Positions 13,404 through 61,661 of a stretch of DNA of 64,000 nt are shown in pieces (within the stretch, counting starts at the first letter, position 1; every line of letters starts with the position of its first letter). The notes beneath the pieces were generated by a model. It saw only the letters and a list, made by a program, of their open reading frames with translations. It was not told the origin of the DNA and ran no database searches. Both the position numbers and the translations under genes were made by a program. Origin of the DNA: Podarcis liolepis. Lineage: Eukaryota. Location: NCBI GenBank assembly GCA_965112155.1, contig OZ218099.1, one strand, 5' to 3'.

Positions 13404-14908
13404 CTGCACAGAAAGGGACAGAACGGTTCTGGAGAGAGCTGCATGTTCAAGGCACTGGCGCGGTAGGGTAGAGCTGCAACGCTACCAATCCTGGAAGCGG
13501 GACTGCTGGGAAGCTAGCACTGAAGCTCCGCCCCTTTGAATGAGTCGCTGCCATTCAAAATATTGTTCAGCCCACCTTTCTGGTGCTCAAGGCAGCTTGC
13601 AGCAGAAAAGTCATGCATCCATTTCAACACAAGCTGGGAAAATGGCACCGTCATTAATCAGTGCCTAAGTGGTAAAGGCCTAGATATGGAGGAGATACCC
13701 CGGCGGAGCATTTCAAAAGGTGAGGTGCCACCACAGGGTAGACCCTGTGATGGGCAGGGGGTGTGGAGAGACAGAAGAACAAATCGAAATATTTTGTTCC
13801 CCCTTTACCAATTAAATGAAGCAAAGATTTAACCGAGGGTCATTTAACGCTTTCTCACTGCTGAAATGAGATACGTTGAAAACAGTATGAAAGACCATAA
13901 AAGCTATATTAAATAATTAATGGCTGGATGGCAATATTAGCATACAAAAATGCATATTAACTTACACTGCATTGTTTTAGAGAGGGAGTGAGTTAGAACA
14001 TTTAAGATAATTGTATGGTGTGTAAAGACTGGAAATGTTCATATGTTTTATATGTTTAAATTAAAAGAAACTTAAAAGGGAAAGAAGAAAAAGGTCCAGG
14101 TTCTGAAGGCAGGTTAGCAGAGAAGAACCTCAGATGACAATTGGTATGAACAGGCAGGTTTCTATAGGAGAAGGCAAGCCTTCGGCCTAGGGATGCCCAA
14201 CTATTTCACTTGGCCTGTCATTTTCAAGTGACCTGGTCTGATTTGCATTCCTGGACAGCAGATTAGAACACAATTATCCCCCACTTTTTGCACCCTTATT
14301 ATTTTTGCAATATAGTTCTCAGGTAAAAGATAATAAAAATACTAAAATGCATTCAAAAATGTGTATTTAAGGACAAAGTTCATACACAAATATGTATTTT
14401 ATGTGATCAAACACATTAAACAGATTTTTTTAAAAAAATGCATTAAAAAGATTGATGCAGAAATGGGATAGAATGGGACCCACGAGTGAACATGTGCAAA
14501 ACACACATTGATTGGCAATTAGACTGGCCTGTCCATCCCTACTTCAGACATCCTGTTTACAGAGATTTACTGGTAAAAGCTGGCATTTCAAATCGTGTCC
14601 TGAAACAAACTGGAAGCCAGTATTTAGAGGCAGGAATCATGCGTATTCCTACCCTTCAGCCTACCCTGGCTCACCTGATTGTCAGGGACAGGCACGAGCA
14701 ATGAGACATGCATGGCTGGCTCACCAGCATAAGCACTTACAGTAAGTGTTGGGAACAGGGCAGAAAGGGGTGTGCTTCTGCATGAGTCACTGGGTACTCC
14801 CAGCCACATACCACAGAACTGAACCGCAAACATGGGAAGCTCTCGACACTTTGGGATGCCCTCATTGGCCTGTCTGTGAATCATGGGCAAGGCAAGAGCC
14901 TTGCTTAC

Positions 14909-15073
14909 CTTGGAGTCCATTTCAATCAAGAGTTTGTCAAGCATCTTCTGCCAATCTTGTTCTTGCCCAGCCATCTTGTTCAACAGCTCCTGCATCATCT
15001 TATGCAACTGCTCCGTGGTAGCATCGAACTGGCTACGGCTGACCTTCGCAGCAAGGGCAGCCTTATCTGCTTT
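14909..15073 (-). CDS. QRICH2: QRICH2 exon (KADKAALAAKVSRSQFDATTEQL...EMDSK)
   Basis: cag/gtaagc, 165 nt, phase 0-0; conserved DUF4795 sequence. Confidence 0.95.
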
Positions 15074-15397
15074 CTGGAAAAGTAGGGGGAAAGATGGGGG
15101 CATATCACTGGTAAGATCTGCATCGCAAAGAACACCCCCGCCCTTCCCATCAGTAGCTCTGAGTGTGGATGTCCAGAGAGCATCTCCCTCCAATCTATAA
15201 GGATGGCAAGCACCAGAATCCCTGTTCAAACGGCTAATGACTGCCCTGCAGGTTGGCTGCAGAGCTGGGAGCAGAATCCAGGCCCCATCTACTTCATACA
15301 CTAGTTCCCTCTGCAAGTAGAGCTTATGCAGGAGCACCTAGCCATGGCTCGATGCGCATGGGACAACTGTGATGTGTTATCAAGTACAACTCCTCAC

Positions 15398-25247: not shown

Positions 25248-26628
25248 GTGCATCTGTGAGGAAGTCTTGTAGCCTGCGGAGATCGGCGTAGCCACACTTG
25301 AATTGATCTAGGAGACTGATCTGGTCTCGCAGAGTATAGTACAAGTCCGTCAGTTGAGCGAGAGACCGCAGGGCATCCACAGTCTCAGAGTAGCGGGCTG
25401 GGGCCAAAGTGGAGCCAGACTCGGACAATGGCATGGGGGTTGGGGCAGAGAGCAGCGGAGATGCTGGAGGCGTAGCTCCAAGGACAGGCCCAGGGGGCAA
25501 TACAAGCTGCATTCCAGGCTGCGCACCAGCCCCCTCACCAGGCTGGTAACCAAGAGGACTGGGCCAAAGAATCCCAGGCTGACCAAGGTACCCAGCTTGG
25601 GCATCAGGAGAACCAGGATAGAACGGAGGGGGTCCGGGAAATCCAGCTTGTATCCATGGAATGACAGCGCCTCCAGGGAAGGCTTCACCAGGCTGGGCGC
25701 CAAGGACTCCAGGATAGGCTCCAGGATAGGCTCCGGCATAGGGTGCCAGGCCTCCAGGGTAGGCTGTTTCATCTCCAGGTGCGCCAGGCTGGGCCCCAGG
25801 TGCTCCAGGTTGAGCCCCAGGTGCCCCAGGCTGGGCTCCAGGTGCCCCAGGGTATGCCCCGGCTGCTCCAGGGTATGGAGCTTGGGCTCCAGGTGCACCA
25901 GGCTGGGCTCCAGGAGCCCCAGGATAGGCCCCAGGTGCTCCGGGATAGGGTGCTTGGGCTCCAGGGGCTCCGGGATAGGCCCCGGGTGCCCCAGGGTAGG
26001 GTGCTTGGGCTCCAGGAGCACCAGGCTGGGCTCCAGGTGCCCCAGGATAGGCCCCAGGTGCACCGGGATAAGCCCCAGGTGCCCCAGGGTAGGGTGCTTG
26101 GGCTCCAGGAGCACCAGGCTGGGCTCCAGGTGCCCCAGGATAGGCCCCAGGTGCACCGGGATAAGCCCCAGGTGCTCCAGGATAGGGTCCTTGGGCTCCA
26201 GGGGCTCCAGGATAGGCTCCAGGCGCACCGGGATAGGCCCCGGGTGCCCCAGGGTAGGGTGCTCCGGGATAGGCCCCGGGTGCCCCAGGATAGGGTGCTT
26301 GGGCTCCAGGGGCTCCGGGATAGGCCCCAGGTGCCCCAGGATAGGGTGCTTGGGCTCCAGGGGCTCCGGGATAGGCCCCAGGTGCCCCGGGATAGGGTGC
26401 CTGGGCCCCAGGAGCTCCTGGCTGGGTCCCTGGAGCACCAGCAACACCAGGCTGGCCTGGCTGAGCTCCAGGAATGCCTGCTGGAGCACTTCTTGGAGCC
26501 CCTGGTGCACCAGCCGGTGTTCCTTCTCTTCTGTGAGTGCCAGGCAAAGTTCCTGGAGATCCAGGAGTGGCTCTGCTTTCTGGAGAGGTGGCAGAATCAG
26601 TTGGAGAGTGTTGGACTGGACTTGTCAC
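25248..26628 (-). CDS. QRICH2: QRICH2 large low-complexity exon (Pro/Gly/Ala/Tyr repeats)
   Basis: ctag|GTG ACA acceptor, GCAC|gtatgt donor, 1381 nt, phase 0-1, within the 515-aa ORF. Confidence 0.88.
25775..26433 (-). repeat. Coding minisatellite of 21-nt ([14 protein letters not shown]) and 30-nt ([10 protein letters not shown]) units
   Basis: Direct tandem repeats in the large QRICH2 exon. Confidence 0.95.
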
Positions 26629-31063: not shown

Positions 31064-31780
31064 CTGCGAAAGGAAGGAAAAGATAATTTAGGATTTCCCC
31101 AGGCTGCTCAGGAATAATGTATGAGTGCAAACATGTTCTAATATTGTAAAAAGGAGCACTGCAAAAGTGAGCTTGTTTTCCCACACTTTTAGAATACAAG
31201 AGGTGAGCACCTGGGGAAAAGCCTTGCAGGGAAAATAAAACTCAAGCACCTTTATGCATGCCCAGTTCACAGCAAATGCATAGCACAGGGGGCCATTTTC
31301 CCTCCCAACAAGCCTTTGGGGACAGAAGCAAACATCACGTTTCCAAGAGAACAAAGAAACAAAAGCACAGCCCAGAAACCTGCATTGCTCTCATGGGATA
31401 GCCTCTGGGGATGTATCTGGGTATTCAATATTGCTCAAAAATACACAGTATTAAGCATAGCATCCCAGTGCCTGCTATGAATATGCCAGGTTGAGTTTTG
31501 GATTGCCAAGGCTGAGAACGGCTTCTTCCAACACTTCCAGACCTATTGCTAGGCCTGGGGCAAATAATACACAATGACAATCAGCCGATTTCTTTAACAG
31601 TAGGTCTCCCCAATCAAAATGGGAGCGAAGTTCCAGTTTGACAAACATACTGAACATGTGGGATAGACTGCTGAACCTCTCATCCTCTCAGTGTTGCTTT
31701 CCTCCTGAACTCTGAGGGGTTAGGTGGACCCAACAGGAAAAGTGGTTAAATAGAAGGAAATAAGGGGTGGACTAGTTTAC

Positions 31781-31885
31781 CAATGCTAAGTGATCCTTGA
31801 TTTTTTGTACTTCATCCTCTAAATTGGCTGTGGCTGCCTTCATTTTGCCAGCCTCATCTATGACATCCTGCAACAAAGATATGGC
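31781..31885 (-). CDS. QRICH2: QRICH2 coding exon 2 (AISLLQDVIDEAGKMKAATANLEDEVQKIKDHLAL)
   Basis: tctag acceptor, gtaaac donor, 105 nt, phase 0-0, open coiled-coil-like frame. Confidence 0.85.
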
Positions 31886-33014: not shown

Positions 33015-33985
33015 CAGTGGTACCTCAGGTTACATACACTTCAGGTTACATACGCTTCAGGTTACAGACTCTGCTAACCCAGAAATAGTGCTTCAGGTTA
33101 AGAACTTTGCTTCAGGATGAGAACAGAAATCGTGCTCCGGCGGCGCGACAGGAGCAGGAGGCCCCATTAGATAAAGATTGAGGTTGAATCCTGACAAGAC
33201 AGAAGTACTGTTTTGGGGGGACAGGCGGGTGTGGGGGATTTCCTGGTCCTGAATGGGGTAACTGTGCCCCTGAAGGACCAGGTGCGCAGCCTGGGAGTCA
33301 TTTTGGACTCACAGCTGTCCATGGAGGCACAGGTTAATTCTGTGTCCAGGGCAGCTGTTTACCAGCTCCACCTGGTACGCAGGCTAAGACCCTACCTGCC
33401 CGTGGACTGTCTCACCAGAGTGGTGCATGCTCTAGTTATCTCCCGCTTGGACTACTGCAACGTGCTCTACCTTTGAAGGTGACCCGGAAACTGCAATTAA
33501 TCCAGAATGCGGCAGCTAGACTGGTGACTGGGAGTGGCCACCGGGACCACATAACACCGGTTCTGAGAGATCTGCATTGGCTCCCAGTACGTTTCCGAGC
33601 ACAATTAAAAGTGTTGGTGCTGACCTTTAAAGCCCTAAACGGCCTCAGTCCTGAATACCTGAAGGAGCGTCTCCACCCCCATCGTTCAGCCCGCACACTG
33701 AGATCCAGCACCGAGGGCCTTCTGCCGGTTCCCTCATTGCGAGAAGTAAGGTTACAGGGAACCAGGCAGAGGGCCTTCTCGGTAGTGGCGCCCACCCTGT
33801 GGAACACCCTCCCTTCAGATGTGAAGGAAATAAGTAGCTATCCTATCTTTAAAAGACATCTGAAGGAAGCCCTGTTCAGGGTATTTTTTAATATTTAACG
33901 CTGTATTGTTTTTAATACTTAATTGGGAGCTGCCCAGAATGGCTGGGGAAACTCAGCCAGATGGGCGGGGTTTAAATAATAAATT

Positions 33986-36397: not shown

Positions 36398-37696
36398 TAA
36401 TTGCTCCACCAACATTTTGTTCTGGACTGGTCCCATCCACTAGTGGCATGTGGCTCCTGGAAGACTGCCCAGATAGGAATGTGGCCCTCAGGCTGAAAAA
36501 TATTCCATGTCTCTGCTCTATTTAATGTTATTCCTATGCACGGAATACAGGGAACGGACTCCTGCCCACCCAGCTGGGGTCTCAGCACAAGCCAGAATAA
36601 GCCAGCTTCTAAATAGCAAGAGATGAGTCTCTACATGTCCAACTCACTGGAGCATCTAGAACTAATGGAAACTTAAGGAATGCAAGATATTTCAACTGCT
36701 CCTTCAGTTGCCTGTTGCAAAGCTTAGCTCTGCTGGGAGACAATCTTGGCATAGCATACCTCACAGTTCACAAACTGTGCTGCCTTTGGTTCACCAATTC
36801 TAATGCAGGGAAAGATGTTCAGGGCAGAGGGTGGGGGCACACAGTGTTACTGGCATCCATCCAGCTTTCCACTTTAGCTAGTCCCAGTGCTCCTTTGACA
36901 GGTAAATCAATGCCTGTCTGGTGTAACTTAGCAAATCCTCTGGATTTCTCAGAACTTTAGCAAAACAATGATTTCTCTGTTGCCAATGACTTTACGAAGC
37001 ACTACAAGTAACGAAAGCTTTGGCATGAACTGTTTTTGAAATGTATGAACCAACATTTTAATAATCAGTCGCTTGAAAGAGTATTCAAACTCTTAAGTCA
37101 AAAACGTAAAACAGGAATTAATACTAATTCTGGAAATTTGAAGGTGAAGCTTGTATTGACAAGGTACCTAGATGTAAATACCAAGTGCATACTTGGTGCA
37201 TTTTCTTAAGGGTTACTAAATGATTCCATGGGGAAACATTTATTTATGCTTCTGTTCATAATTCCAGGAGGCATCACCTCCACAGAGGAATACGTGTGAA
37301 GCTTCAGGTACTGCCAAGATCTGCACAACAGATCTAGAATCACGGTGCAGCAGTTTATGGTGTTTGCCAACACAACATAACAATGCATAATAGTTCTCTT
37401 TGTCTCTTCACTCCAACACAAGTTGACAGTTAAACATCTTTGGAGCGGGGTGAAACTTTCAGAAAGGAATGATTGACAGCTTGCTGTACCGTATCCCTGC
37501 AGCGAGCTAGGCCTTTAAAGGAAAAAAAAACCAAACCAAAACAGTCCGTATGCCCATCATGCCTCCTTCAAAAACTAGTCTAAAATTAATATTGTTCACA
37601 ATCGCTATAAAGGGCACTCTTAACTCAATTCTGATGTAACCTTTGCATGCCCCTGAAATTTCTACAATCTGGGTGTTTTTTTAATCGTTCACATAC

Positions 37697-38473
37697 CTTG
37701 TTGATGCCCTCTTCGTTGGCTTCAACTTTCTTCTGCAACTGCATCGCTTGCCATAGATCGGCCACAGAGCCACTCCTGGCTTTATCCATCAAGTCGGTAC
37801 CAGAAGGCAGCTTCTCTAGGCCAGACATTTGCTGTTCAAACCCTTTGACCCGCTTTCCCAACCCCTGCACTTTCCCCTGGACTCCCTGCACTTGATCTTG
37901 CATTCCTTGGACCTGATCTTCCACCCCTTGCACCTGATCTGCCATCCCTTGGAGGTTAGCCTGCAGCGCGAACATTTTATTTTCCAAGTCGTCAAGGCGA
38001 GATTCTATGTCTTTGTCTGAAACCCCCTTTTCCTTCCTGGGCCTGCCTTCTTTGCCTTCCTTGCCCTCCAGGCCTTCTTTGCCTTCCTTGCCCTCCAGGC
38101 CTTCTTTGCCTTCCTTGCCCTCCAGGCCTTCCTTGCCTTCCTTGCCTTCCTTGCCCTTCAAGCCTTCCTTGCCTGCCCTGCCTTCCTTGCCTGCCCTGCC
38201 TTCCTGGCCCTCCTTGCCTGCCCTGCCATCCTTACCCTTCAGTAACTCTTCATCGGACAGTATCTCCCCAACCCCCGTCTCAATAGCCACCGGCATGTCT
38301 GGCTTGGGTGGCGGGCCCCGATCCATCTTGACCTCCGTCATGGCATCCTGGATTTTGAGGTACCTGAGGATGGCATGGAGGAGGGTGTGGAGGGCATTGA
38401 AATTGACATGGCCAACTTCGGGAGTCCCTATGGAGATGTCCGCCAACTCGTACAAGGTGACTTTCAGAGACAT
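37697..38473 (-). CDS. QRICH2: QRICH2 first coding exon (259 codons)
   Basis: ATG at 38473 gives MSLKVTLYELADISIGTPEVGHVNFNALHTLLHAIL, matching the QRICH2 long-isoform N-terminal motif (ELADLAIGTPEVGAVNFTALHTL). Ends EANEEGINK|gtatgt, phase 0. A pyrimidine tract plus cag suggests the exon begins at 38519. Confidence 0.9.
37859..37951 (-). repeat. Coding 21-nt heptad repeat (QGMADQV QGVEDQV QGMQDQV QGVQGKV QGL)
   Basis: Seen in translation and DNA periodicity. Confidence 0.85.
38039..38236 (-). repeat. Coding 9-nt tandem repeat giving 22 Gly-X-Y triplets (GKE/GLE/GRA)
   Basis: (ccttccttg)-type repeat on the + strand; translation GKD GRA GKE ... GKE GRP. Confidence 0.95.
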
Positions 38474-38879
38474 GTCTGCACCCCTTTCGACCCACCCTTC
38501 GCTTTGCGACAACCGCCAGCTGCCTTATTTAAGAAAAATAAAATAAAACCTTCTTTTAAGAAATAACAAAACAAAAACAAAACAAAAAACCCGGTCCCAA
38601 TCTTTTATTAACCCCTATGAAAATATAACGCTGGGATGGGAAGGCAGTTCAATAAATAAAAGCTCTTCCCTTTTTTAAAAACAAGGAATATCTGTCTGGA
38701 GTATATATATATATATATATTTAAGCCCAATTTATTGTAAGCCCATTCCTAAAAGTGAGCAGGCTCGCGCCATAAAGGGATGAGCAGCGCCTCTATCTCG
38801 CTTTATCTTTTTGCTCTTTTTGCCTATCCTTTTCCTACCCGCCCCCCTCAAAACGACCACCCCTATTTAAAGGGCTTTT

Positions 38880-39270
38880 TCAAAGCTCCCCTCAGCCTAA
38901 GCAGCACCCGCCCCCAGCGCAGCTCGCAGCTCGGGCGAGCGACGGACTGACGAGCAGCTCCCTGCCGAAGCTCGGAAAAGAAGCCGCCTCCGCCGCGGAC
39001 AATCCGGCCCCGTTCGAATCCTTGCGTTCCATTGGTTGCCTCACAAACCTTCTCGTTCCCGGATTGGCTTCGAGAACTGCTCGTGTGCTTTTGTTTACCT
39101 CGCCGGCTGCCGGCTGATTGCGAGCCGGCGTTTGTGGTTGCTACGCAACGGAGGCGACCGCCCTCCGCCGTTCCGGGACTCGCGGCGCCGCGCGAATTAT
39201 GACTCCGCGCGCTCCCTCCCCCCTCGCCCTTGCTAAACAGAGAGGAATGGGCGGGAGCCGAAGGAATCGG
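38880..39270 (-). promoter_or_regulatory. CpG-island promoter of QRICH2 with X-box, CCAAT and GC boxes
   Basis: Densest CpG stretch in the window, 400-800 bp upstream of the ATG; GTTGCTACGCAAC at 39137-39149; ATTGG at about 39031 and 39063; CCCGCCCC boxes. Confidence 0.8.
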
Positions 39271-41548
39271 GGAGGTTTGTTAGCCAGTTTAATATATTCC
39301 CAGTTTAATTAAGCTATTTCTTTCCCAAGAGTTTCCGAGCAGCAGATTCAAAAAGTATAAGATAAAATTTAGACGCCACACACAGAGATTTTTTTTAAGG
39401 GGGGTGCCTGTTGGTGGCATTCGTAGATCTGTTTACATTAAACATTTAAATTACCTTGTAGGTTTTCCTGAAATAAAGGAAAAAGTGCTGAAATACTGTG
39501 CAGAACCACGTAAGCGTGATTTAGCCCTAAGGTCATCTGGTCCAACTGTTTGCCAGAAGCAAGACTCCTGCAAAAGCTCTCCTTGCAGCCAAAGGCCTTG
39601 GATGGTGGAAAGCGACGAGTCTCAGGTACGGCTTAGTTTGTACCAGCCTTGTTTTCAGTGTTCAAGATACTGGGAACAGATGAACTGTGGACAGCGGCAA
39701 GCGGGGGAAATAGCTCAGTGGTGAGAAAAACAGGCTCTGTGTATCATAGAATGGTAGAGTTGGAAGGTATCTCAAGGTTCATCTCGCCAAACTCCATACA
39801 CTCTATTTAACGGTTAGTTTTGCATTGATTTGTGAAATCTAAATATTATTATTATTTATTAAATTTATATAGTCATTCTATTTTTATATATAGCTATAGA
39901 TACAGATATAAAAACCTATGCACATTTCAAGCAGATTTATGTCCAATGGGCTTGTGGCCCAGTCTTTTAAATATTTGTGATGCCCGTTTCAATAAATATC
40001 ATTTAAAAAAATAAAAAATAAATATTTGTGATGCCCTCTACTCCAAAGCATGTTTCCTCCAACAATGGGCAACTGCAAAGTTCCCATGCGACACTGAGTA
40101 CAGCAGACGGGGGGACTTTGTGGCCTTCTAAGTGCGGTTGGACTCCCATCAGTGCCAAGACAGCACAGGAAGAGAGTTGCAGTCCAACATCTGGAGGACC
40201 ACAGGGTCCTTATCCCTGCAGCCCTGATCTCTCTCTTGCTCTTTCCCAAATTTCAAAGCAAATATTCACCTACAACAGTGACTTCCAACAAGCAGTAGCT
40301 GTCTGTCACATCTCAACTGAAATATCCCCATGCTTTGCCTCTCTCGCAATTGGAAGGCTCTTTTTAACATCTCACTTCCGCTGTTTAATTGCAGTTTGAG
40401 CTCCTTTGCTCCTGTCTTCTCCACAGTAGCACAAAAGAGCAACTGGTCCTTGATTTCTCATAACTAGGATGGAGTGAAAAAAGGGGCAAAAGTGAAACAG
40501 ATGTAGGACCGGGATGGGGAACTCTGGCTCTCATTAGTCCCAGGCAGCTTGGCTGAGGGCCAGAAATGATGAACTTCTATATTCTTAACAGTGTTGGCAA
40601 TTTCCCTATCAACAGAGCCAAAATTTCTGTGGCAGACACTTGGGAGTAAACCACCACAGAACAGAGTTGGATGTATCTCTGAGTGAAATGCATAGGATCA
40701 GTCTACTCATGTTAGCTACTCTAGAACAATGTGAATTGACTTTGTAGGACCTAATCATGTTTTCATGGTATGCTGACTAGTAGTTTTTTACTACTATGGT
40801 TATATTTGTAACTATGCAATTTTTTTTCATGTTCTAAGCCAACTTGAGCATGGTTTTAGCTATGGAAAGGCGGAATTCAAATAAAATGATGTATATACGT
40901 AACATCAGCTCAGAACAGCTCTCTGTGTGTACTGAAAGGTCAACTTCTCCATTTATGGAGTGCAGTCTATATTACCATGAGGACTAGCACCCTGAATCTG
41001 GAAAAAAAATAGCAGATTCTTTGCCGAGTCTCTTATGTATGATTAGATGCCCTGATCATGTGATGAGAGCTGGTGGCTGTGCTCAGTTCCTCTCACCCAA
41101 GCCAATTGCATTTACAGATGAGAAAATACCCTTAGGGACCTACTGTAGAGCAGGGGTAGCCAACACATTAGTGACCACAGCTCCAGTTCTAGCTTTGGAC
41201 CTGATGGCTGGGGCTGATGAGCACCTCTAAACATCTGAAGGGCACATTGGCTACCCCTGCTTTACAGTCTGCACATGAAATTAATGCTCAACATTTGATT
41301 CATAAGTGTAAGGAATCCTGGCTGAATTCTAATACAGATCACTATGGAATTACTGTTTTAAGGTTATGCATGGGGTTGTTTATTTTTATTGCTGTTTTAA
41401 TTGTGTCTTTACAAATTGCAACCCATCCTAAGACTGGCTGTTGAAGGGAAATTAAGAAATATGTAGCAGCAACAGCAACAAGGACAGCTTCTCTAAAACC
41501 ATGATCAAGAATATATCTTTGCAGTATTTTCTGCTTCTCCTAAGTGTT

Positions 41549-59958: not shown

Positions 59959-60489
59959 CTGAAATTGTTCAAAAATATTAATCAGTAATCCATCTGCCAA
60001 TCAAATTCTAGAAACAGCTTCTTCTAAGAAGAAAGCAATGTCAGCCAAAATAATGTGACCAGATTTTTAAAAATCATTTATTTCATTTCTTAGGCCACAG
60101 CAAACAAATTAATTTTTAAACCTAACCTAAAAGTTTTCAAAGTAGTATTCACAGAATCTCTGGGGTTTTGCAGAAACTTGCCAGGGGTTTCTGAATGCAA
60201 ATATCAGAAATGGTGGAGACACTGCCCAGTAAACTGCTTGTGCACCATTACCAATCTTATTTCTTTATTCCATAAAATACAGCTTGAATTTTTTTTTCAA
60301 ACAACCTCAAAGCAGTTTACAAAAATGACATTATCCATAAAAACTCAGTTAAACACAACTATTTTAGCATTTAACCAAATGATTAAAATCAATGATAAAC
60401 TAAAAGCCAGATTAAAATTCATGTCACCTGCAGAGCTTGTAGCCAGGGCTGCTGCAACAAACAGCTGTGAAAGCCTTTGGGAGGCAAAG

Positions 60490-60624
60490 NNNNNNNNNNN
60501 NNNNNNNNNNNNNNNNNNNNNNNNNNNNNNNNNNNNNNNNNNNNNNNNNNNNNNNNNNNNNNNNNNNNNNNNNNNNNNNNNNNNNNNNNNNNNNNNNNNN
60601 NNNNNNNNNNNNNNNNNNNNNNNN
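60490..60624. other. Assembly gap (135 N) in a PRPSAP1 intron
   Basis: Run of N. Confidence 1.
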
Positions 60625-61661
60625 CGGCACCCCTGAGCATCATTCAAAGCAGACCAGGGTGCCAAGGCACACTAGTTGAAAACCACTGCACTAAAAGATC
60701 AATTCCTTCCAAATACAGGGTATTGTGGCATCTGTGGCAGTGTTAATGTTCACCATGTCAACATGTATCAAAAGTTCCTTTGCACCAGCTATAGCTTTTT
60801 GCTTTTTACATAGTGCCTGACAGACCCACTGATCACCAGTTTCAAAAAAGAATGTATGTGGGAGGGATGTTAGCAGTAGCCTTTTGCAACAGGGAGCTAA
60901 ACAGTGTTGGCAGAAGGTGAAAAGGCCTAAACATGCCCAATCACTTGCTGAAGGTATTAGGGGAACTCTGGACCGGGAAGCACTCTAGGAGCACACTCTC
61001 TGAAGCACAGTGAACATTCATGCTGCAACCCTTCTTTCATCTGCACTTGGCGTTCCACCAGATTTGGACCACAGTCTTTCCTGATCATCTGAGATGATAC
61101 CCTTAGGAGTCTTTTGGCTCTCAAAGACATGTGACTGATTAAGTCTGTGTTTTAGCCAGCTGCTCTCATTTCTTCCACTGTAAGCTTTCCCTCGGAAAAT
61201 TAAACCCCCATTTATCTTGACACATTTGCCAACGTTCTCCAAATTGGTTTGTTCTGCCTCCTATCTCCACCACACTGCACTGTTTATATACACAAAAAAG
61301 CTTTGTTCACCATCAAGGAAGTAGCCAAGAATTACATAAAACCACTCCATCCCCCAAGCAATTAAGACAAAAAGTTAACAGTGCACAATTTCCCCCTTCT
61401 GTGGCTTAAGGTGGCAGAGGCTAAGGAAGGACAGTCATTGTTTCCTAGGATTATGCATTTCACAAGCTGTCAACTTATGCTTATGATTTTAAACTAAGGT
61501 TCATAATGACCAAGTATGAACAACAACAGCCCCAATGCTTCAGGCACATGTACATGTTAAGGAAATAGGCCTAGGTTAAAACTGTTCAGAAGTCTCAAGG
61601 CAGGAAAAACAGGGAGTGGGAGAGAGAAAGAACACAAGGTCTTTCCAGCATCATAGATATA

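What the first reader, a model, noticed from the sequence alone, without database searches (positions are those of the whole stretch)
37859..38236. Charged, nearly proline-free collagen-like (Gly-X-Y)22 tract followed by a heptad repeat in QRICH2
Seen: 22 uninterrupted Gly-X-Y triplets (GKD GRA GKE GQE ... GKE GLE GKE GKE GRP), mostly Lys/Glu, with Pro only in the last triplet. About 30 residues later come 4+ heptads QG[MV]xDQV with Val/Met at a/d-like spacing. Established: hydroxyproline-free bacterial collagens such as streptococcal Scl2 (GKD-rich) are stabilised by charge pairs, and collagen tracts often use an adjacent trimeric coiled coil for registration (collectins, class A scavenger receptors). 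Inference: this lizard QRICH2 may have gained an intracellular collagen-like trimerising stalk by 9-nt microsatellite expansion. I do not recall such a tract in mammalian QRICH2.
Basis: partly seen in the sequence, partly recalled or inferred. Interest (0 to 1): 0.75.

Follow-up and report, generated by a model that had tools for sequence, protein, structure and literature searches.

The report
Young collagen-like repeat in lizard QRICH2
Wall lizards have recently gained a collagen-like repeat in a sperm-tail protein by DNA repeat expansion; it is real and translated, but relatives break it, so it is more likely a flexible by-product than a working collagen rod, although it sits beside an old, probably three-stranded coiled coil that could make it fold.

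Summary
Observation confirmed: 22 unbroken Gly-X-Y triplets (12 GKE, one Pro) lie in exon 1 of QRICH2, minus strand 38236-38039. Spliced contigs from two runs join exon 2 to the tract's 3' part. The tract is a lacertid 9-nt expansion: 0 of 17 other squamates have it, a skink has a glycine-free charged expansion at the same spot, and 2 of 4 Podarcis species break the glycine register. Glycine shows no measurable constraint (low power), and the tract has no KGE/KGD salt-bridge triplets. The heptad segment is not new. It keeps a 7-residue register in 33 of 33 amniote proteins, starts with an RhxxhE trimer motif in 19 of 22 squamates, and dominates a three-chain model (0.53, best control 0.02). 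That model also draws the triple helix, and bacterial collagen-like proteins use GKE runs of similar length, so folding is not excluded. Best reading (0.55): a by-product charged linker, with the old coiled coil doing the oligomerising. Rival (0.30): a triple helix held in register by the coiled coil. The scan had no QRICH2 note; it made similar by-product calls on bacterial repeats.

The parts
38339..38473 (-). QRICH2 start codon (38473) and conserved N-terminal domain, residues 1-45, two short helices in the model; no signal peptide
   Evidence: highest 19-residue hydropathy 0.78 in exon 1
38237..38338 (-). Variable linker before the tract, residues 46-79; fast-evolving
   Evidence: 9 replacement and 2 silent differences against run X11; length and sequence vary across reptiles
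38039..38236 (-). (Gly-X-Y)22 tract, residues 80-145, encoded by a purine-rich (81%) 9-nt tandem repeat, commonest unit GGC AAG GAA, with a higher-order 27-nt block in three identical copies
38230..38238 (-). Donor-like site AGG|GTAAGG (first intron base would be 38235). No use seen; GT is GC in run X11
38000..38038 (-). 13-residue charged spacer between tract and coiled coil
   Evidence: 5 replacement and 0 silent differences against X11
37982..37999 (-). RLDDLE, a match to the R-hxxhE coiled-coil trimerisation motif, at g-a-b-c-d-e
   Evidence: Present in 19 of 22 squamate proteins, 0 of 11 others; motif definition from PMC3653964
37820..37996 (-). Old heptad coiled coil, residues 160-218, Val/Met/Leu at a and d, including the QG[MV]xDQV heptads (37951-37847) and a 21-nt repeat
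   Evidence: Length 3 mod 7 in 33 of 33 proteins; one helix in the monomer model; lowest-error contacts in the trimer model; TRF period 21 at 37893-37953
37697..37819 (-). Conserved LPSG turn and further helices to the end of exon 1; donor AAG|GTATGT, intron starts at 37696
   Evidence: loose ends at 37696 in X1 and X11
31775..31885 (-). Exon 2 (acceptor TTCTAG|GCC), joined to exon 1 in the contigs
39049..39085 (-). 3' end of a candidate alternative first exon in the CpG island (donor AAG|GTTTGT, intron from 39048). Gene models that use it enter at LPSG and lack N-domain, tract and heptads. The models' start codon reads ACG in this window
   Evidence: Match to the N-termini of P0041 and P0065; not covered by the read lay

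Best explanation
The tract is a by-product. In the lacertid line, replication slippage amplified a 9-nt purine-rich seed (K-E-G) that already lay in a hypervariable, charged, in-frame linker between QRICH2's N-terminal domain and its coiled coil. Glycine recurs every third residue because the amplified unit is three codons long and holds one Gly codon. The tract is translated (shown for its 3' part at RNA level; inferred for the protein) and most likely acts as a flexible, near-neutral polyampholyte spacer that is at most transiently triple-helical (inferred). [quoted passage not shown]
For: Recent and narrow: 0 of 17 non-lacertid squamates have a Gly-period run longer than 2 in this linker, including the amphisbaenian Rhineura; none in 8 turtles, 2 birds, 1 marsupial. 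21 of 22 Gly codons are GGC. Seeds KEG or KGE sit at the same spot in 7 of 17 outgroup linkers, and 83 of 391 tripeptide windows there hold one Gly. A second reading frame of the same DNA also gives an 8-triplet Gly run. Tiliqua has an independent Gly-free (R/K)E expansion at the same place, linker 97 residues, 63% charged. Register or Gly broken in 2 of 4 Podarcis species: P. muralis one-residue deletion in both assembly versions, P. raffonei Gly to Ser; P. muralis v1 also Gly to Arg; run X11 has one extra codon in the first triplet. No deficit of Gly replacements: p 0.20-0.38 under three ways of counting. 0 KGE/KGD, 1 Pro in 22 triplets; only 1 of 116 GKE-bearing collagen-like proteins has both 40% or more GKE and so little Pro. 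By contrast the heptad register holds in 33 of 33 proteins over seven length classes, and 25 of the 25 lowest-error contacts in the trimer model are in the coiled coil.
Against: The trimer model also places tract residues 79-139 in Gly-period contacts under 8 A error. Bacterial collagen-like proteins with GKE runs exist, with a median of 19.5 triplets and a median of 0 KGE/KGD (116 of 120 hits have 10 or more triplets). GKE is not depleted against its marginals in 150 other collagen-like proteins (O/E 2.8). The tract has persisted in a relative about 5% divergent, with no Gly replacement in the 71 bases covered, and its replacement rate there (2 of 53 sites) is lower than in the flanking linkers (14 of 102; Fisher p 0.09). 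All five Podarcis versions but P. muralis v1 keep 10 or more unbroken triplets next to the coiled coil. Real collagens tolerate interruptions (393-394 in human collagens, PMC11923368). The Gly test has little power, and repeat homogenisation confounds both directions.
Confidence: 0.55

Rival explanations
1. The tract folds as a collagen triple helix inside the cell, nucleated from its C-terminal side by the pre-existing trimeric coiled coil, as in collectins. It forms a rigid stalk of roughly 60 residues that holds the three N-terminal domains away from the coiled coil. It may be a passenger structure (about 0.2) or a selected one (about 0.1).
For: 22 unbroken triplets, where 9-10 can suffice for stable helices (PMC13138384). 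R-hxxhE motif and Val-rich a/d core 13 residues downstream. Three-chain model 0.53 against best control 0.02, with Gly-period contacts in the tract. GKE-rich bacterial collagen-like proteins of the same length. Scl2 folds without hydroxyproline, with 30% charged residues and a coiled-coil trimerisation domain (PMC10765305). Lower replacement rate than the flanks, p 0.09.
Against: Register breaks in 2 of 4 Podarcis species. No KGE/KGD pairs, 1 Pro against about 12% Pro in Scl2 and a median 0.29 Pro per triplet in the bacterial look-alikes. A model can draw a triple helix from memory for any G-X-Y run; on eukaryotes only 1 of 7 cases with no older solved relative passed. In the human proteome all proteins with 9 or more triplets but WDR33 are secreted or type II membrane proteins. 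Most reptile QRICH2 proteins do without the tract.
Confidence: 0.3
2. What is selected is a longer, highly charged spacer, not glycine periodicity: an alternating Lys/Glu tract that tunes reach, solubility or binding to tubulin tails or fibrous-sheath proteins. Lacertids and a skink reached it independently.
For: Two independent charged expansions at one site, Podarcis (53% charged, net +1) and Tiliqua. The linker is 27-63% charged in all 33 proteins anchored. Mouse QRICH2 binds alpha-tubulin and its N-terminal part promoted tubulin polymerisation in vitro (PMC11006759). The flanks carry 14 replacements to 2 silent changes against X11.
Against: Most squamates have short linkers (37-55 residues). 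Purine-rich repeats slip readily, so two expansions need no selection. No functional data exist for any reptile QRICH2 in the searches run.
Confidence: 0.1
3. The tract is mostly absent from the mature message: it is removed as an in-frame internal intron from the donor at 38235 to the TAG at 37816 (420 bases, 140 codons), or the main isoform uses the upstream first exon and enters at LPSG.
For: Donor-like AGG|GTAAGG at 38235 and a weak TAG acceptor at 37816 are in frame. Annotated isoforms in P. lilfordi, P. raffonei and L. agilis lack the whole region (P0041, P0037, P0065). Run X1 has no cover from 38102 to 38372.
Against: Contigs in X1 (99%+ alike) and X11 run from exon 2 unbroken through 37816 into the tract (37696-38074 and 37696-38087), and no joint or loose end appears at 38235, 37816 or 37810. 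X11 reads through 38235, where GT is GC. The N-terminal domain and heptads that would be lost are conserved from fish or amniotes onward. Contigs show presence, not proportions.
Confidence: 0.05

Closest known systems
QRICH2 (glutamine-rich protein 2; DUF4795 / PF16043 family with C16orf96)
   Same: Orthologue: same N-terminal domain, heptad segment, central low-complexity exon and DUF4795; 17 pieces of the P. muralis protein map in order. Mammalian QRICH2 is a sperm-flagellum and manchette protein (PMC6347614, PMC11006759).
   Different: The Gly-X-Y tract is found only in lacertids among the proteins examined. The central repeat is Pro/Gly/Ala/Tyr-rich here, not the mammalian Gln-rich one.
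WDR33 (WDC146), nuclear CPSF subunit with 23 continuous G-X-Y triplets
   Same: Intracellular vertebrate protein with a collagen-like run of nearly the same length and unknown function; the one non-secreted case in a human survey (PMC13138384; PMC11331416).
   Different: WDR33's region is described as vertebrate-wide; this one is lineage-specific and Lys/Glu-rich, and it sits beside a candidate trimeric coiled coil. AlphaFold3 was inconclusive for WDR33 according to the paper.
Streptococcal Scl2 and other prokaryotic collagen-like proteins (including the unnamed GKE-rich proteins, several labelled Solirubrobacteraceae)
   Same: Hydroxyproline-free, charge-rich G-X-Y; trimerisation by an adjacent domain; GKEGKEGLEGKEGKEG-like runs occur in the set.
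   Different: They are secreted or surface proteins. Scl2.28 has 79 triplets and about 12% Pro; the GKE-rich set has a median 0.29 Pro per triplet against 0.05 here. None of the proteins is shown here to be triple-helical. No homology: the likeness is the repeat pattern.
Collectins (SP-D, MBL) and class A scavenger receptors
   Same: Order of parts: collagen-like run followed on its C-terminal side by a three-stranded coiled-coil candidate (recalled knowledge; no call tested these proteins).
   Different: Those are secreted or type II membrane proteins with Pro/Hyp-rich, old and conserved collagen domains and lectin or SRCR heads. QRICH2 has no signal peptide or membrane helix and none of those domains.
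Short trimeric coiled coils with the R-hxxhE motif (coronin-1 type)
   Same: RLDDLE at g-a-x-x-d-e, with beta-branched residues common at both a and d (V 165 and 121 of the positions counted).
   Different: [quoted passage not shown] Here each heptad carries a Gly at c, and turtles, birds and the marsupial lack the Arg.

Membership tests
QRICH2 / DUF4795 family | DUF4795 domain in the C-terminal part | tested here: met
   PF16043 at E 3.7e-20, above cut-off, in window 14624-15337
QRICH2 / DUF4795 family | Orthology over the N-terminus and the whole exon chain | tested here: met
   93-97% identity to Podarcis QRICH2 over residues 1-60; 17 tblastn pieces above 80% identity in order
Collagen-like (triple-helical) protein | Gly at every third residue for 9 or more triplets | tested here: met
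   22 triplets; PF01391 above cut-off
Collagen-like (triple-helical) protein | Forms a cooperative triple helix | not testable with these tools
   A model draws Gly-period contacts in the tract but may do so from memory; a monomer model cannot show it
Collagen-like (triple-helical) protein | Gly register kept by selection among orthologues | tested here: inconclusive
   Broken in 2 of 4 Podarcis species; no Gly deficit, p 0.20-0.38, low power; tract replacement rate below flanks at p 0.09
Collagen-like (triple-helical) protein | Stabilising residues: Pro/Hyp or axial KGE/KGD salt bridges | tested here: not met
   1 Pro, 0 KGE/KGD, 0 i+5 pairs (rule from PMC11923368). Same-triplet Lys-Glu pairs were not assessed
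Collagen-like (triple-helical) protein | Adjacent trimerisation domain | tested here: inconclusive
   Heptads, R-hxxhE and a three-chain model at 0.53 against 0.02; two and four copies were not modelled
Animal collagens, collectins, scavenger receptors | Secretory route (signal peptide or type II membrane helix) with prolyl hydroxylation | tested here: not met
   Highest 19-residue hydropathy 0.78 in exon 1 and 1.0 in the full P. lilfordi protein; no Pro-Gly site in the tract. A hydropathy scan, not a signal-peptide predictor
Parallel three-stranded coiled coil | Heptad a/d hydrophobic pattern with register kept through indels | tested here: met
   Lengths 31, 52, 59, 66, 73, 80, 87, all 3 mod 7, in 33 of 33 (the marsupial and Rhineura anchors were set by hand after one search gave 32 of 33 with Rhineura unanchored); continuous helix 152-219
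Parallel three-stranded coiled coil | Trimer stoichiometry in solution | not testable with these tools
   Motif and model favour it; needs SEC-MALS or ultracentrifugation

The most novel reading that the evidence does not exclude
A collagen triple helix born de novo inside a cytoplasmic vertebrate protein: a microsatellite expansion happened to land next to an old trimeric coiled coil, which registers three chains and lets a proline-free (Gly-Lys-Glu)-rich run fold into a rigid stalk in lizard spermatids. The four Podarcis versions would then be a natural series of intact and interrupted helices, showing how collagen domains can start before selection refines them.
Probability: 0.25. Interest if true: 0.75.

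Novelty: new variant of a known kind. Interest (0 to 1): 0.4.

Why it matters
If the tract folds, it would be an intracellular, hydroxyproline-free vertebrate triple helix of recent origin; the one human precedent for such a sequence (WDR33) is unresolved. It would make two questions directly testable with a 150-residue fragment and its natural variants: whether new collagen domains can arise by repeat slippage next to a trimeriser, and whether GKE runs without KGE/KGD pairs can hold a helix. If it does not fold, it is a clean example of a Pfam 'Collagen' hit that is a repeat by-product. Either way, the conserved heptad register and trimer motif suggest that QRICH2, a male-infertility gene with no solved relative found here beyond weak generic coiled-coil matches, oligomerises through an N-terminal coiled coil. 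I did not find that stated in the passages I read.

Tried and rejected
Whole genome: none is held for this window, so no genome-wide base rate of such repeats was obtained. Run search: no holder is on record as RNA; the 15 'RNA?' labels are guesses. Of four runs laid, X2 could not be read and X10 gave 0 contigs; neither is evidence. The X1 gap at 38102-38372 is not evidence of splicing, since no contig joins across it. Chance as the source of the Gly period at protein level: rejected. Assembly artefact: rejected, since three other Podarcis assemblies and two runs hold the tract. Homology to a real collagen: PDB and representative-library hits are 33-54% pattern matches spread over long collagens. 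My first argument that GKE is disfavoured in natural triple helices did not hold: it is rare in one set (22 of 27,476 triplets) but above expectation there (O/E 2.8), and common in another. A second R-hxxhE-like match (RVKGFE) has Phe at d and fails the strict definition. ESM Atlas: best score 0.84 to collagen clusters, low recognition, a lead only. Rows dropped from the orthologue counts: Python and Elgaria models lack the N-terminus; the current Zootoca and both L. agilis models start after the tract; the older Zootoca model has a 5-triplet remnant joined in a way that looks patched; amphibian and fish proteins were aligned but not put in the heptad count. Literature: no host-guest stability data for GKE could be read (one search found nothing relevant; not held), so no melting temperature was estimated. 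Earlier scan notes near this place: none.

Full report
The observation. The minus strand holds an open frame from an ATG at 38473 to a splice donor after 37697. Residues 80-145 (window 38236-38039) are 22 unbroken Gly-X-Y triplets: 12 GKE, 3 GRA, 3 GLE and one each of GKD, GQE, GLK, GRP. Shuffling the exon-1 protein 20,000 times never gave more than 8. Pfam Collagen passes its cut-off. The DNA is a 9-nt tandem repeat, 21.1 copies, 73% matches, 81% purine, with GGC in 21 of 22 Gly codons. Three strict QG[MV]xDQV heptads start 29 residues later, followed by two looser ones.

The gene. The first 60 residues are 93-97% identical to annotated QRICH2 of three Podarcis species. The P. muralis protein maps in 17 pieces above 80% identity from 38473 down to 1010, and DUF4795 is present. 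No signal peptide or membrane helix shows in a hydropathy scan. Mammalian QRICH2 is a flagellar and manchette protein that binds AKAP3, ODF2, TSSK4 and alpha-tubulin, and its loss causes malformed sperm tails (PMC6347614; PMC11006759; PMC8900305; passages only).

Is the tract in the message? I laid 4 of the 23 listed runs; one was unreadable and one gave nothing. In X1 (99%+ alike) one contig covers 37696-38074 and in X11 (18 other letters in 392) one covers 37696-38087; both continue at 37696 into letters that are exon 2 (31884 downward, acceptor TTCTAG|GCC). Spliced molecules therefore include the heptads and at least the last 4-5 triplets. Another X11 contig runs from 38676 through the proposed cryptic donor into the first 71 bases of the tract, and the GT there is GC. 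No contig spans the whole tract, the RNA label is a guess, and X1 does not cover 38235. An in-frame 420-base internal intron (38235 to the TAG at 37816) is possible on paper but was not seen. Separately, gene models in three lacertids use an upstream exon (its match ends at 39049) or a later start and lack this whole region.

How old is it, and is the register kept? Window 22 triplets, clean. P. lilfordi 19, clean. P. raffonei 20 with Ser for Gly at triplet 4. P. muralis 65 residues, with one residue missing after triplet 11 in both assembly versions, and Arg for Gly at triplet 18 in the older one only. So 2 of 4 Podarcis species are interrupted. X11 has one extra codon in the first triplet and a 45-base in-register length difference. 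Outside lacertids, 0 of 17 squamates have a Gly-period run above 2 in this linker, and none of 8 turtles, 2 birds and 1 marsupial has the tract. The outgroup linkers are Lys/Glu-rich and 7 of 17 carry KEG or KGE at the spot; 83 of 391 tripeptide windows hold one Gly, so about one slippage seed in five would give a Gly-X-Y run. The skink Tiliqua expanded the same linker into a Gly-free (R/K)E tract. Counting distinct replacements, Gly is not spared significantly (1-2 of 9-12 events against 30% expected, p 0.20-0.38), but the test is weak and the events were counted by hand. Against my reading: in the part covered by X11 the tract has 2 replacements in 53 sites, the flanks 14 in 102 (p 0.09), and four of five Podarcis versions keep 10 or more clean triplets beside the coiled coil. 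Current Zootoca and Lacerta models begin after the tract and could not be used.

The heptad segment is old. From the conserved LxDLE start to the LxxLPSG turn the length is 31, 52, 59, 66, 73, 80 or 87 residues, always 3 modulo 7, in 33 of 33 proteins (two anchors set by hand). Slippage of a 21-nt unit would also add sevens, so the point is the contrast: no break here across amniotes, two breaks in the tract within one genus. Val, Leu, Met and Ile fill a and d. The segment opens with RLDDLE, a match to the R-hxxhE trimer motif, in 19 of 22 squamates and 0 of 11 others; the motif favours parallel trimers but also occurs in some dimers (PMC3653964, passages). The monomer model gives one helix over 152-219 and low-confidence coil over the tract, which cannot address a triple helix. 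Three copies of residues 72-258 scored 0.53 against a best control of 0.02; runs agreed in at least 71% of contacts and partner pLDDT was at least 58. The mark was reached by 21 of 30 microbial self-pairs and 0 of 23 single chains; on eukaryotes by 17 of 29 (animals 7 of 16), by 1 of 7 with no older solved relative, and by 0 of 30 single chains; the calibration used two copies, not three. All 25 lowest-error pairs are in residues 162-208. Tract residues 79-139 are also named at a three-residue period, so the model draws the triple helix; both features resemble solved structures and may come from memory. Two and four copies were not modelled.

Could this sequence fold? Against: one Pro, and none of the Lys(Y) to Asp/Glu(X) pairs (KGE, KGD, i+5) that PMC11923368 describes as the stabilising bridges; the polarity here is reversed (8 EGK). 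In 150 long collagen-like proteins KGE occurs 169 times, EGK 12 times, and GKE never twice in a row. For: GKE is above expectation in that set, and a word search found 120 shorter, mostly prokaryotic proteins of which 116 have 10 or more triplets, with median 19.5 triplets, 24% GKE and no KGE/KGD. They carry more Pro (median 0.29 per triplet), and only 1 of 116 is both as GKE-rich and as Pro-poor as this tract. None is shown here to be helical. Scl2 folds with about 12% Pro, 30% charged residues and a trimerising V domain (PMC10765305; PMC8968730; passages). From recall and untested: host-guest peptide work rates GKE close to GKD. The tract is thus at the low-stability edge of what may fold, helped by a neighbouring trimeriser and a cool host.

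Comparison and novelty. A human survey found every protein with 9 or more triplets to be secreted or type II membrane, except nuclear WDR33 with 23 (PMC13138384), whose region has no known function (PMC11331416). An intracellular collagen-like sequence is therefore rare but not unprecedented. I found no paper on this tract or on a QRICH2 trimer: one search listed 30 of 212 papers with 'QRICH2', none on reptile sperm by title or abstract start, and none of the 15 papers listed of 220 contains the word. Subscription journals and supplements were not seen. The tract is already visible as a precomputed Pfam Collagen hit on P. lilfordi and P. raffonei records.

Verdict. Shown: the tract, its repeat origin, its lacertid range among the proteins examined, partial presence in spliced contigs, interruptions in two congeners, and the age and register of the heptads. 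Inferred: translation, a trimeric coiled coil, and the tract's physical state. I put 0.55 on a by-product flexible linker, 0.30 on a coiled-coil-templated triple helix, 0.10 on a selected charged spacer and 0.05 on removal by splicing. It works like a candidate collectin-type stalk but fails the secretion and stabilising-residue tests, so I do not file it as a collagen. Interest 0.4.

Noticed in passing
window 37820-37999 (minus) and proteins P0006-P0106: The QRICH2 heptad segment grows and shrinks only by whole heptads across amniotes (31-87 residues), has Gly at position c of most heptads, and opens with an R-hxxhE trimer motif in most squamates. This points to an old, probably trimeric coiled coil in a male-infertility protein.
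   Followed up: partly
P0061 / P0064 (Tiliqua scincoides), residues about 75-135: Independent Gly-free (R/K)E-rich expansion at the same linker, resembling a charged single alpha-helix.
   Followed up: partly
window 39049-39085 (minus), CpG island about 38500-39500: Candidate alternative first exon that joins at LPSG and skips the N-domain, tract and heptads in gene models; the models' start codon reads ACG in this window, so the next Met (MDKARS) would be used.
   Followed up: partly
window 25249-26628 (minus): Large central QRICH2 exon encoding an elastin-like Pro/Gly/Ala/Tyr repeat ([14 protein letters not shown] type; 21-nt-based arrays) where mammals have the Gln-rich repeat; copy number differs among Podarcis species.
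   Followed up: no
window 37697-38473 (minus) against run X11: Exon 1 outside the N-terminal domain shows many replacements and few silent changes (linker 9:2, spacer 5:0, coiled coil 12:1), which suggests relaxed or positive selection; based on single contigs.
   Followed up: partly
P0272-P0391: A large set of short prokaryotic proteins (several labelled Solirubrobacteraceae) with a hydrophobic N-terminus, about 20 GKE-rich triplets lacking KGE/KGD, and varied C-terminal domains; apparently uncharacterised.
   Followed up: partly
window about 60500-60620: A run of N (assembly gap) shows as X in the frame 60094-60636.
   Followed up: no
window 33338-33898 (plus): Open frame that looks like the C-terminal end of a LINE reverse transcriptase remnant in intron 1 (recalled resemblance, not tested).
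   Followed up: no
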